Translations under genes and position numbers: made by a program
In this document: positions 5,307-9,708 of the stretch, one piece after another
Layout of the letters: each line of letters starts with the position of its first letter
Position numbering within the stretch: the stretch's first letter is position 1
Assembly (NCBI GenBank): GCA_031835245.2
Contig: JAVKOQ020000004.1
Location: 434,001-498,000, forward strand
Direction: 5' to 3'
Origin: Balamuthia mandrillaris
Lineage: Eukaryota
Length of the DNA: 64,000 nt
Notes under the pieces: generated by a model
What the model was told of the DNA's origin: nothing
Databases searched by the model: none
Seen by the model: only the letters and a program-made list of their open reading frames with translations

Positions 5307-5479
5307 ATAGGACGCAGGTCAGAAAGCCTTCGTTACGACAGACTGAGTCTCTTTCTTTTCTTTTCTAGTTGTCGACTTTATTTCTCTTTTTGTCGACATG
5401 CGACTTTTTTTTGTGCACACGTGGACCAATTTTACTGTACAATTTGTATAGAGGTTATGTACAAAAGTGTCCCTTCGAG

Positions 5480-8400
5480 CTAAAGGAGGATGCTATCGGA
5501 GCCCAACTGCGCGGGACCCCCAAGGGTGGCCTCTTTCGCGGTGGTGTTCGGTGCGGCAGAGTCCGCTGCACGGGGGTTGAGTTGGTACTGAAGCGAGTCC
5601 GTTCCGGCTTCGTGGTCAATGCGCAGGACGGTGCGGTCGGCGAGCTCTCCGCCGAGTATCATCTCGGAGAGCTGTGTTCCGATGACGTTCTCCACGAAAC
5701 GCCGAATGGGACGAGCGCCGTAGGCGGGTTGATAGGCCTTCTCCAAGACAAAATCCAACGCGCGGTCCGATACTTGCAGCTCGATCTGCCTCTCAGCAAG
5801 AGGCTTCACCAGCGAGTTCATTTGCAGTCGAACGATGGACAAAAGATTGGCTCGGGTGAGCGGGTTGAAGACCACGATATCATCTAACCGGTTGAGAAAC
5901 TCTGGCTTGAAGTTTCTTCGCACTATAGCCATCACTTGCTCTTTCACGTTTTCTCCGATGCCACCTCCGTTGGCTTTGCTATCCAAAGCTTGAAGCAGCA
6001 CTTCAGAGCCAAGATTCGAGGTCATGATGATGACAGTGTTGCTGAAATCTACGGTCCGTCCTTGCCCATCGGTCATGCGTCCGTCATCCAACACCTGCAA
6101 CAGAACGTTCCAAACAAGTGGGTGGGCCTTCTCTATCTCATCCAAAAGTACCACGGTGTAAGGCCTCCTCCTCACGCTCTCCGTCAGCTGTCCTCCTTGG
6201 TCGTAACCAACGTAACCAGGAGGAGCTCCAATCATCCTGCTTACGGAATGGGCTTCCATGTACTCTGACATGTCGATGCGAACGATGTTGTCGGCATCTT
6301 CGAAGAGCTCCTCCGCCAAGGCTTTAGCCAGAGCAGTTTTGCCCACTCCTGTTGGACCGAGAAAAAGGAAAGTGCCTTGTGGCTTCCCGCGAGGGCTCAG
6401 TCCAGCTCTGCTGCGAAGCACGGCGTTGGCGACGGCGGTCACAGCTGCATCCTGTCCGATCACTTTGGAGCGTAGCCGTTGAGAGAGGGAGAGTAGTCTG
6501 TCCCTCTCACTCTGGCTGAGCTTTGAGACTGGAATACCGGTCCATCGACTTACCACCTCAGCAATCTGTTGAGGTCCAACTGTTTCCACCAATAGCCTTG
6601 TGTCTTCTTCATCTTCGCCTTCTTGCTTATGTGAAGCTTCCAACAGCTCCTCAAGCTCTTTTTCTAACTGAGGAAGAGTCTCATACCGTAGTTCAGCAGC
6701 TTTGTTAAGGTTGTATCTTCGTTCGTTCTGTTCGATGGCCCATTCAGTGTCTTCTATCTCCTTTCTCAGCTCCGCCAGACGATCCAGTTTTGATTTCTCC
6801 TGCTGATACTTTGCTTTGATGACATCCAGTCGTTCGTTGGCTTCTGCCAGCTCTCTTTGAACGGTCGCTAAGCGAACTGCCAGATGGTGGCTGTCTCTCT
6901 TCTCCGTCTCTATTTCCTTTTCTAAAGCCGTTGCTTCGATCTCCAAACGAAGAATGGTGCGCTCCAGTTGATCGATGACTTCAGGCTGGCTGTCTAGTTC
7001 GACTCTCGTGTTGGCGCAAGCTTCATCCACCAAATCGATCGCTTTGTCCGGAAGAAAACGACCCATGATATACCTATATAATGACAGATAAAAGAGTCAT
7101 TGTTTGTGTCATATACATTAACAAAACCATCCTTACCTATCTGAAAGTTGAGCAGCAGCCACAAGTGCACTGTCCGAGATCCGAACTCCATGATGCGACT
7201 CGTACCTATCCTTCAACCCTCTGAGAATACTTACCGTATCCTCCACTGAAGGCTCGTCAACAAACACCTGTTGGAATCTTCTCTCAAAGGCAGCATCCTT
7301 CTCCACATGCTTCCTGTATTCATCGAGAGTGGTTGCTCCGATGCATCGCAGCTCTCCTCTTGCCAACATGGGCTTCAGGAGATTGGCGGCATCCATAGGA
7401 GAACCTTCGGCCTTCCCCGCCCCAAGCACGTTGTGTATCTCGTCTATGAAGAGGATGACGGAACCTGCGGAGTCGGAGACCTCGGAGAGAACAGCTTTGA
7501 GGCGTTCCTCGAATTCGCCACGATACTTGGCACCAGCTACCAGTCGTCCCATGTCCAAGCTTACCACTCGGCAGTGCTTCAAGTTCTCTGGTACATCTCC
7601 TCTTACGATTCTCTGCAACAGATAAGATAGCAAAACGTAAATGAATGAATTACCGTGAAGCAAAGAAGGAAAACAAAGAATAAGGGAGCCGAACCTTTGC
7701 TAATCCTTCCACGATGGCAGTCTTACCTACGCCAGGTTCTCCGATAAGAACCGGATTATTCTTGGTCCTCCTTGACAACACTCTTACTACCCTCCTTATC
7801 TCGTCATCTCTGCCAATTACCGGATCCAACTTGCCCTCTTCCGCTAGAGCCACCAGATCAGTGCCGTACTTGTTCAGCGCCTCGTAGGCTGCCTCTGCGC
7901 TGTGGCTCTCCACCTTTCTCCGGCCTCTAATCTCGTTGATGACGCTCTCCAAGCGGCTGCGTGTGAAGCCAGCCGAGTTGAAGACCTCTCCCACGTGTGC
8001 GTCCCCCATAAGCCCCATTAAGAGGTGATCGACCGCCAAGAACTGGTCACCCTTGTTGCGACGTACTGTGTCGGCCGTGGATATGACGTTGGTGATGGCT
8101 GCCGACGTGCTGATTTGTTCTGGGGGAGGACTTTGTTGGGCTATTCCGTTTAGCTTGTCCTTCAAGCCCTGTTGTTTTGTCGCATTGTGAGTTTTCGTCG
8201 ACCAAAAAAGACAGGCAGAAAAGAAAAGAAAGAAAGAAGGAACGATAAGAAAGACATAACGGAGAGAAGGAGAGAGAGCGAAAGGGAGAGAGAAAGTTTG
8301 GAAGAGGAAAGAAAAAGAAATACTCCAGAGAGTAATCACAAAGAATGAGACACCAAGAGAAACAAAATGTGGAATATACGCAGTAGAAGCAACGAAGAGA

Positions 8401-8706
8401 GAGAGAGAGAGAGAGAGAGCTTACATTTTTGATGGCTTTCACCGAGATGCCGGCCCTCTCACAGACCCTTCTGGCGAGGCCGTCGTTGTCGGCAAACAAG
8501 GCGGTAGCCAGGTGGACCGGCATCAGGCGGGCGTTGCCCTGGCTCTGCGCCAAGGCGACCGCGTTGTTCAACATCTCGACCGTCTTCTGAGTGAAGGTGT
8601 TGGGGTCGACGCCCCATTGGGCCGCCACCATGGAGCGGTGGGGCAGGAACCCGACCGCACAAAAGAGGACGAAAAGGATGGCCGGCATCTTTCGAAATGA
8701 AGTCAT
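5480..8706 (-). CDS. clpB/HSP101: ClpB/Hsp101 AAA+ disaggregase (4 exons, about 8706-8423, 8169-7694, 7613-7136, 7074-5480) with a signal-peptide-like N-terminal extension
   Basis: [14 protein letters not shown], Walker A GEPGVGKT and GPTGVGKT, Walker B LFIDEIH and LLDEIEKAH, pore loops GAKYRG and GYVGY, and a coiled-coil M-domain. Confidence 0.96.
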
Positions 8707-8955
8707 GCTGTTTCCAAAAGGAAAATGAGCGGAGTGAAGAGGCGTACTTGTGTTATCGTTGTGTGTGTGGGACGTCTTCCTCTAGGATGTGATACCGTTT
8801 GGTCTGTGCGTCTATAATGCCTGTGGATGGCAACGGACCTGGTTTTTTTTTTCTGTTGGATGGTGTGCGTGGAGTGCACCACCTGCCCACGTGGAGCATT
8901 GCCATTGGACCAACGCGCCCACTTTTCAAATATTCCGCAATTCCCCATTTGAGAT

Positions 8956-9017
8956 GAAAGTTCACAGCAGTTCCATTCGAAATTCCAGTGGAAACTTCCA
9001 GCAGTTCCACTCGAATT
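8956..9017. promoter_or_regulatory. Imperfect ~28-bp direct repeat of heat-shock-element-like GAAnnTTC units upstream of Hsp101
   Basis: gaaagttcacagcagttccattcgaaatt (8956) and gaaacttccagcagttccactcgaatt (8991), about 250-300 bp upstream of the ATG. Confidence 0.45.
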
Positions 9018-9708
9018 GGATTGAATGCTCAGATGGGATTCCCTCTCTGGGGCGTCGAGGGAATGAATAGGTCCTCCTCCGAGACGGATAATGCACCCAG
9101 CAAGACTCGTATGTCGTGAGGTGGGTGAATGTGTTGGTTATATGGAAAGACCTCTTCCGAGGACTCTCCCGCTGTGCCTGTGGGTGAATGTGTTGGTTCC
9201 TAACGGAAGGCGCTTTGATGTCATCAATCCTCAGGAAGGATAGTCACGTCTGCACACAGCGGATTCAGCTGCTTCAACACTCGTACCCATTGATAGACCA
9301 CAGGCACAGGAATGGTAAGCAGGTCCTGCCTTCCTCAGAAGCTTCGTTGTTTTCAAGAGGCGAAACGGACAAAAAAGATGACGCCACGGAGTAACATATT
9401 AAATGTCGACATGACGACATTAATTCCTCAAAAAAAAAAAAGTAGAAGTCGAGGGTCCGAAAATCTTGTTGATCCGATGACCCCTCGTAAAAGAAGGAAA
9501 CTTCGCCACAAACGAAAAGAAGAAAGTAAGAGGAGCCTCGCTTCCCTCCCTCCTTTTGTTTTTTGTTGTTGTCCGGGTTGTTGGCTTGCTTCTCCAAGTC
9601 CAACGGTTGGTTTGCCTTCCTTTGCCTCAAGCTCCACTTTTTCCGTTCGGCTTTTTTTCTTTCAAACCAAACGCTGAAAAGAGTGGTTAGGTTAGCACAG
9701 GTTCCTCT

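What the first reader, a model, noticed from the sequence alone, without database searches (positions are those of the whole stretch)
8560..8706. ClpB/Hsp101 disaggregase with an apparent ER signal peptide
In frame before the usual Clp N-domain start ([10 protein letters not shown]) lies [32 protein letters not shown]. This has a basic n-region, a hydrophobic h-region and a V-A-A cleavage site, and is unlike an Arg-rich mitochondrial presequence. Knowledge: Hsp100s are normally cytosolic, mitochondrial or plastidial; the well-known secretory exception is Plasmodium PTEX HSP101, which drives protein export. There is no KDEL (ends DSILL). Inference: a lumenal or secreted unfoldase, possibly part of an undescribed translocation or ER/phagosome disaggregation system. 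A downstream ATG (MVAAQ) could give a cytosolic isoform.
Basis: partly seen in the sequence, partly recalled or inferred. Interest (0 to 1): 0.8.

Follow-up and report, generated by a model that had tools for sequence, protein, structure and literature searches.

The report
Secretory-pathway Hsp104 disaggregase clade
This amoeba gene encodes an Hsp104-type protein-untangling machine whose transcribed leader is predicted to be a signal peptide, and its closest relatives carry such leaders too, several with ER-retention-like tails, so it likely belongs to an undescribed branch that works inside the endoplasmic reticulum, a compartment not known to have such a machine.

Summary
The minus-strand gene (8706-5480, four exons) encodes a 941-aa Hsp101/Hsp104-type ClpB, identical to a public Balamuthia mandrillaris protein. 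A spliced RNA contig reaches 109 nt above ATG 8706 with no earlier ATG, so the hydrophobic leader lies on the mRNA. The leader is inherited, not accidental: 6 of the 120 best homologues have such a leader, and they form one clade with this protein (100/98) on a tree built without leaders or tails. Four of the 7 end in RDEL/RDEM/KEL, against 0 of 114 others. Balamuthia has a separate leaderless cytosolic-type paralogue. A perfect ER-stress element (CCAAT-N9-CCACG) lies 75-93 nt above the transcript's 5' end. Best reading: an ER-lumen Hsp104-type disaggregase, likely working with BiP (0.6); entry into the secretory pathway about 0.85. Against: this copy has no KDEL-like tail, SignalP was not available, localisation is untested, and the relatives' organisms are unnamed. 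Plasmodium HSP101 joins the clade in 3 of 6 trees, a lead only. My searches found no description of such a clade.

The parts
8890..8908 (-). ERSE-I consensus CCAAT-N9-CCACG, 75-93 nt above the 5'-most transcribed base; candidate ER-stress element
   Evidence: Only match in the 64-kb window; 3 of 100 shuffles give one; consensus per PMC3935401. Function in amoebae untested.
8707..8815 (-). Transcribed 5' UTR (at least 109 nt), without ATG
   Evidence: Contig of run X1 spans 8815-8428 with 0 differences; no ATG in 8830-8707; raw reads of X3 reach bin 8767-8817
8620..8706 (-). Predicted signal peptide, residues 1-29 (n-region MTSFRK, uncharged core residues 7-22, inferred cleavage VAA|Q30)
   Evidence: like leaders in 6 relatives, five of them with Gln in near register at the inferred +1 position
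8425..8706 (-). Exon 1 (leader and first Clp N repeat)
8169..8424 (-). Intron 1, 256 nt, GT-AG
   Evidence: Absent from the X1 contig, which runs from 8428 to 8168 with 3 record letters between; no joint row listed because a repeat there is masked
7695..8168 (-). Exon 2 (second Clp N repeat, NBD1 Walker A)
7613..7694 (-). Intron 2, 82 nt
   Evidence: 82-nt skip in X1 contig and in X3/X4 raw reads
7137..7612 (-). Exon 3 (NBD1 pore loop, Walker B)
7074..7136 (-). Intron 3, 63 nt
   Evidence: 63-nt skip in X1 contig and 5 raw reads of X3
5480..7073 (-). Exon 4 (M-domain, NBD2, C-terminal domain, tail, stop)
6707..6742 (-). Clade signature WAIEQNE(R)[RK]YNL in the M-domain, residues 522-533
   Evidence: In all 7 clade members, in none of the other 34 rows shown; W522 in 1% and N527 in 0% of 114 other homologues
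5483..5509 (-). C-terminal tail QLGSDSILL; not KDEL-like, but similar to the tail of the nearest relative P0156 (PQLTNDVIL)

Best explanation
The gene encodes an intact Hsp104/ClpB-type AAA+ protein whose leader is predicted to carry it into the ER, where it likely forms a ring that pulls aggregated secretory proteins apart with the ER Hsp70 (BiP), likely under ER-stress control. Shown: the leader is on the spliced mRNA as the first ATG; both ATPase domains, both pore loops and the M-domain are intact; the protein belongs to an old leader-bearing paralogue clade apart from the cytosolic Hsp101 of the same amoeba; several clade members end in RDEL/RDEM/KEL; an ERSE consensus lies in the proximal promoter. 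Inferred: cleavage after VAA; lumenal location; hexamer formation and activation by BiP through the M-domain (by analogy with ClpB-DnaK and Hsp104-Hsp70); induction through the ERSE. The Balamuthia copy has no KDEL-like tail, so it would stay in the ER by partner binding or by its own ...D-x-I-L tail, or in part travel further.
For: First ATG on the mRNA, A at -3. Hydrophobic leader (11-residue mean 2.0 or more) in 7 of 7 clade members against 1 of 114 other homologues; RDEL/RDEM/KEL ends in 4 of 7 against 0 of 114 (P0275 and P0276 end RDEI). Clade support 0.993, 98, 100/98, 97, on columns 38-897 only. A sister relation to the Balamuthia cytosolic paralogue is rejected, p-AU 8.6e-5. That paralogue (59% identical, no leader, ends QKKKPKI) is expressed in the same runs (loose ends read as its LRACKDYFRP). 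In the relatives the leader runs straight into the N-domain, with no transit peptide. Catalytic motifs intact. ERSE unique in the window.
Against: No KDEL-like tail in this protein, in P0001, P0156, P0196 or L002. No SignalP score, no localisation. The retention-like pattern and the ERSE were noticed first and counted afterwards; the 4 tails come from only two sub-lineages, and P0166/P0169 are 89% identical. An ERSE-II consensus also lies at 5430-5420 ahead of an acyl-CoA oxidase gene, so such motifs may be general promoter parts here; no paper on ERSE in Acanthamoeba was found. A second public Balamuthia model (P0001, 97% identical) is annotated from M45, without the leader. The M-domain signature differs from that of cytosolic Hsp101s, so BiP coupling may be altered. 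Raw-read depth over the leader is only about 2-7, and no start site was mapped.
Confidence: 0.6

Rival explanations
1. The protein enters the ER but in Balamuthia works further on (phagosome/lysosome, cyst-wall assembly, cell surface or medium), having lost the retrieval tail; the hydrophobic ...D-x-I-L(L) tail would be a sorting signal.
For: No KDEL-like end in P0005/P0001; the nearest relative P0156 keeps a similar tail; Plasmodium HSP101 passes through the ER to a vacuole (PMC8896661).
Against: An AAA+ ring needs ATP and an Hsp70, which the ER lumen has and lysosomes or medium largely lack (own knowledge); relatives carry retention-like tails; ERSE in the promoter.
Confidence: 0.2
2. It is the motor of a PTEX-like or retro-translocation machine that threads cargo through a membrane pore rather than a soluble disaggregase.
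For: Plasmodium HSP101 groups with the clade in 3 of 6 trees and shares 4 of 10 diagnostic sites; the clade has a distinct M-domain surface.
Against: Neighbours are a TFIIF-beta gene and an acyl-CoA oxidase; partners could not be sought, since no genome is held; the M-domain keeps the disaggregase-type ELRY/ELRF helix, which P. ovale HSP101 has lost; short branches suggest conserved function.
Confidence: 0.07
3. The protein is mostly cytosolic: translation starts at ATG 8631 or 8574 and the leader is untranslated or a minor isoform.
For: P0001 is annotated from M45; start sites are not mapped.
Against: Two upstream ATGs in good context; read depth shows no step at 8631; leaders are kept across a clade of 58-63% identity; retention-like tails make no sense in the cytosol; a separate cytosolic paralogue exists. 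Runs whose reads carry P0001-type substitutions also cover the leader with no listed difference (not phased).
Confidence: 0.07
4. The leader targets mitochondria or another organelle (an Hsp78-like role).
For: The first six residues are basic/hydroxylated and no acidic residue occurs before D34.
Against: A 16-residue uncharged core and only 2 Arg; relatives' leaders have 0-3 Arg and 18-26-residue uncharged runs; the N-domain is present and the best solved matches are plant-type ClpB1 and fungal Hsp104; retention-like tails.
Confidence: 0.05

Closest known systems
Cytosolic Hsp101/Hsp104 disaggregases (plant ClpB1/Hsp101, PDB 9ip0; fungal Hsp104, PDB 6d00; Dictyostelium Hsp101)
   Same: Domain order, all catalytic motifs, M-domain, 58-63% identity; the clade nests among these proteins.
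   Different: Signal-peptide-like leader, retention-like or hydrophobic tail in place of the basic tail, distinct M-domain signature, ERSE and no clear three-unit heat-shock element in the promoter.
Plasmodium HSP101/ClpB2 of PTEX (PDB 6e10, 6e11)
   Same: Hsp100 with a signal peptide and the same N-terminal offset; an ER pool is reported (PMC8896661); may share ancestry with this clade.
   Different: About 40% identity and a very long branch; remodelled M-domain; docks on PTEX150/EXP2 to export proteins from a vacuole. No such partners were found or could be sought here.
BiP-based ER disaggregation (Melo et al. 2022, PMC9076838)
   Same: Same compartment and task as proposed here.
   Different: Hsp70 alone; the paper calls the BiP system apparently the only ER-resident machine with that potential, in a mammalian setting.
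Torsins (ER-lumen AAA+ ATPases of animals; PMC4999309 seen as a listing)
   Same: Clp-related AAA+ proteins in the ER lumen.
   Different: Single ATPase domain needing LAP1/LULL1, no N-domain or M-domain (own knowledge); the protein here is a full two-ring ClpB.
Mitochondrial Hsp78 / organellar ClpB
   Same: Organelle-targeted ClpB paralogue beside a cytosolic one.
   Different: Hydrophobic, Arg-poor leader; N-domain kept; derived from the cytosolic Hsp101 lineage.

Membership tests
ClpB/Hsp104 (class I Hsp100) | Double Clp N-domain plus two AAA+ domains with Walker A/B | tested here: met
   Pfam Clp_N, AAA, AAA_lid_9, AAA_2, ClpB_D2-small; [33 protein letters not shown]
ClpB/Hsp104 (class I Hsp100) | Tyr pore loops in both rings and sensor-2 GAR | tested here: met
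   [21 protein letters not shown]. Five relatives have Met for the first pore-loop Tyr (sequences).
ClpB/Hsp104 (class I Hsp100) | Long coiled-coil M-domain with the Hsp70-contact helix | tested here: met
   Aligns without gaps to cytosolic Hsp101 M-domains, [10 protein letters not shown]; the role of this helix is recalled
ClpB/Hsp104 (class I Hsp100) | Score against the curated ClpB model | tested here: inconclusive
   TIGR03346 1218.9 bits against cut-off 1232.1, over 848 of 853 positions; best family by far, but the model is prokaryotic
ClpB/Hsp104 (class I Hsp100) | Hsp70-dependent disaggregation by a hexamer | not testable with these tools
   Needs biochemistry
ER-resident lumenal protein | Cleavable N-terminal signal peptide on the translated product | tested here: inconclusive
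   Anatomy, home-made rule, RNA cover and conservation agree; no SignalP, no peptide evidence
ER-resident lumenal protein | C-terminal KDEL-type retrieval signal | tested here: not met
   Ends DSILL; retention-like ends in 4 of 7 clade members
PTEX HSP101 | One clade with Plasmodium HSP101 | tested here: inconclusive
   Inside the clade in 3 of 6 trees, outside in 3
PTEX HSP101 | EXP2/PTEX150 partners and a host vacuole | not testable with these tools
   No genome held; not among the two neighbours examined
Mitochondrial Hsp78 | Arg-rich amphipathic presequence, no Clp N-domain (features recalled) | tested here: not met

The most novel reading that the evidence does not exclude
An old, undescribed branch of Hsp104-type disaggregases lives in the ER lumen of several protist lineages, is wired to an ATF6/bZIP28-type ER-stress element in an amoebozoan, and is the lineage from which the malaria parasite's PTEX export motor HSP101 was drawn.
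Probability: 0.2. Interest if true: 0.92.

Novelty: new variant of a known kind. Interest (0 to 1): 0.76.

Why it matters
Hsp104/ClpB disaggregases are known from cytosol, mitochondria and plastids; for the mammalian ER, BiP is described as apparently the only disaggregating machine (PMC9076838). A natural ER-lumen Hsp104 with retrieval tails would change the inventory of ER quality control in protists, would supply an enzyme already adapted to the lumen for asking whether ER aggregates can be cleared by an Hsp100-BiP pair, and would give a testable origin for PTEX HSP101. A perfect ERSE in an amoebozoan promoter would also suggest that this form of ER-stress wiring is older than animals and plants.

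Tried and rejected
Whole genome: none held, so BiP/GRP94/PDI promoters, mitochondrial Hsp78 and translocon partners could not be checked. Exon-1 search against longer proteins gave 1 hit of 274 candidates and an N-domain search 4 of 542; only the full-length search reached the clade. The 50%-representative search collapses the family; 8 of its best 150 have a hydrophobic N-terminus by my cut-off, three with a leader right before the N-domain (P0049, P0102, P0118). Run search: no listed holder is on record as RNA; laying showed splicing. No start-site peaks. A possible 40-nt intron at 8747-8708 is not spliced in the X1 contig, and removing it would put upstream sequence out of frame. Heat-shock element: no perfect three-unit site, one gapped site at 8973, 11 one-mismatch matches against 42 expected: no support. 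Clade-signature DNA pattern: 4 loci in metagenome contigs, all of this clade; 0 in prokaryote genomes; 1 viral match to a shorter pattern, unrelated. Atlas: no answer for the leader; P0166 1-180 gave only bacterial Clp_N clusters. Earlier findings of the scan: none relevant. The bacterial promoter scan does not apply. Organisms of P0156, P0166, P0169, P0173, P0175 and P0196 are unnamed. No structure or complex prediction was run: it cannot decide location.

Full report
Gene and observation. The finding lies at the 5' end of a minus-strand gene with exons 8706-8425, 8168-7695, 7612-7137 and 7073-5480 and three GT-AG introns of 256, 82 and 63 nt. The 941-aa product is identical to P0005, which NCBI names as a Balamuthia mandrillaris protein, KAL6079439.1. 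It is a complete ClpB/Hsp104: Clp N repeats, two AAA+ domains, M-domain, with both Walker A and B motifs, both Tyr pore loops and sensor 2 intact. The best solved relatives are ClpB1 (9ip0) and fungal Hsp104. No trained predictor was on hand. A home-made rule passes the leader from M1, fails it from M7, and passes 13 of the window's 1771 ATGs.

The leader is on the mRNA. A contig of run X1 matches 8815-8428 with no difference and continues at 8168, so intron 1 is absent from it; contigs of the same run skip introns 2 and 3, as do raw reads of X3 (both) and X4 (intron 2). There is no ATG between 8830 and 8707, so 8706 is the first ATG; it and 8688 have A at -3, while 8631 has T. Raw reads of three RNA runs (3-5% of each read) cover the leader at depth about 2-7, without a step at 8631; no start-site peak was listed, so a second, lower start is not excluded. 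A second public model, P0001 (868 of 898 columns identical), is annotated from M45. Reads in X2/X3 carry several P0001-type substitutions and the same runs cover the leader with no listed difference. This suggests a gene-model choice rather than a lost leader, but the reads are not phased.

The leader is inherited. The full-length search scored 7999 candidates and listed 120. Six of them have a hydrophobic leader directly before the N-domain: P0156 (the best non-Balamuthia hit), P0166, P0169, P0173, P0175 and P0196, the last two cut at their 5' ends. With leaders and tails left out of the alignment, these six and P0005 form one clade: 0.993 in FastTree on 127 rows (with P0001), 98 and 100/98 (bootstrap not fully settled) in IQ-TREE on 41 chosen rows, and 97 on 40 rows without Plasmodium. 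They share an M-domain signature, WAIEQNE(R)[RK]YNL. Identity between P0005 and the others is 58-63%, so the leader has been kept over a long span. A hydrophobic N-terminus occurs in 7 of 7 clade members and 1 of 114 other homologues (113 plus P0002); RDEL, RDEM or KEL ends occur in 4 of 7 and 0 of 114 (pattern set after seeing the ends; two sub-lineages). P0005 and P0156 instead end DSILL and DVIL, P0196 TTNQ and L002 GAAS. The relatives are unnamed. Genomic fragments in the P0166 cluster break off as intron read-through would, and the signature pattern has 0 matches in prokaryote genomes, so they are likely eukaryotic.

Division of labour. Balamuthia has a second Hsp101, P0228/P0273, 59% identical, without a leader and with a basic tail like other cytosolic Hsp101s (its annotated N-terminus looks mis-modelled). 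It groups with the Dracoamoeba protein, and a sister relation to P0005 is rejected (p-AU 8.6e-5). Its reads appear as loose ends in the same RNA runs.

Promoter. CCAAT-N9-CCACG, the ERSE-I bound by ATF6/NF-Y in mammals and bZIP28/NF-Y in plants (PMC3935401, passages), lies at 8908-8890 on the gene's strand, 75-93 nt above the 5'-most transcribed base. It is the only match in the window; 3 of 100 shuffles give one, and the chance for 200 sense-strand bases is about 2e-4. I saw it by eye before testing. An ERSE-II consensus lies 50-60 nt past the stop codon, ahead of an acyl-CoA oxidase gene, which warns that CCAAT/CCACG pairs may be general promoter parts. No clear heat-shock element was found. 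No paper holds both 'ER stress response element' and 'Acanthamoeba'.

Mechanism. Most likely the leader sends the protein through Sec61, is cut before Gln30, and the mature protein forms a ring in the lumen that threads aggregated clients, switched on by BiP at the M-domain as ClpB is by DnaK (PMC4131146 and PMC8896661, passages). These steps are inferred. I put secretory entry at about 0.85 and the ER-disaggregase role at 0.6. The main rival (0.2) is a post-ER role in Balamuthia, since it lacks a retrieval tail.

Link to Plasmodium HSP101. P. ovale HSP101 (P0102) falls with the clade at support 98-99 in three trees (23 rows, 39 rows and 21 rows with a mixture model) and outside it in three (the same 41 rows, where it joins two other long, leader-bearing sequences, P0049 and P0118). 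Holding all ten together is not rejected (p-AU 0.48). It matches 4 of 10 clade-diagnostic sites, a score also reached by 1 other of 109 representatives and 1 of 114 background hits. With one very long branch this is a lead only.

Literature. Ten searches listed no paper on an ER-lumen Hsp104 clade or on this gene; the library lacks most subscription papers. Seen as passages: PMC10471605 and bioRxiv 10.1101/2025.02.25.640156 (0 occurrences of 'clp'), PMC7355975, PMC4131146, PMC8896661, PMC9076838 (BiP apparently the only ER machine with disaggregating potential; mammalian), PMC12283024 (a eukaryote-wide HSP100 phylogeny with 0 occurrences of 'endoplasmic' or 'signal peptide'), PMC3935401. One supplementary file of PMC8569187 held none of six terms. 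The preprint's supplementary tables could not be read and may hold expression data for this gene. All other papers were seen only as listings.

Verdict. Real feature; first reading supported and sharpened. A new variant of a known kind: a leader-bearing, partly RDEL-tailed Hsp104 clade, not a proven ER resident. Interest 0.76.

Noticed in passing
window 5420-5430 (-): Perfect ERSE-II consensus (ATTGG-N-CCACG) just past the ClpB stop codon and about 370 nt upstream of an acyl-CoA oxidase-like gene; only match in the window, 6 of 100 shuffles give one.
   Followed up: partly
P0049/P0291 and P0118: Two further, very divergent Hsp100s with a signal-peptide-like leader directly before the N-domain; P0049 ends NNGEL. 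They fall outside the clade but a common clade is not rejected.
   Followed up: partly
P0166, P0169, P0173, P0175, P0196: All five replace the first pore-loop Tyr by Met (AGTKMRGE, AGASMRGE, AGATMRGE), which may change substrate grip.
   Followed up: no
P0003, P0210, P0236, P0241, P0245 and kin: A supported group of short-leader ClpBs on long intronless contigs, two named Planctomycetota, nests among eukaryotic Hsp101s rather than with ordinary bacterial ClpB; a eukaryote-like ClpB in bacteria or a transfer.
   Followed up: no
window 8965-9017 and 9121-9198: A 17-nt direct repeat with GAA/TTC-rich half sites, a 13-nt inverted repeat and an exact 19-nt direct repeat in the intergenic stretch shared with the divergent TFIIF-beta gene.
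   Followed up: no
window 7900-8470 and 5448-5534: Raw RNA reads of runs X2-X4 show several alleles or copies of this gene, some of P0001 type with a longer tail ending DASILL.
   Followed up: partly
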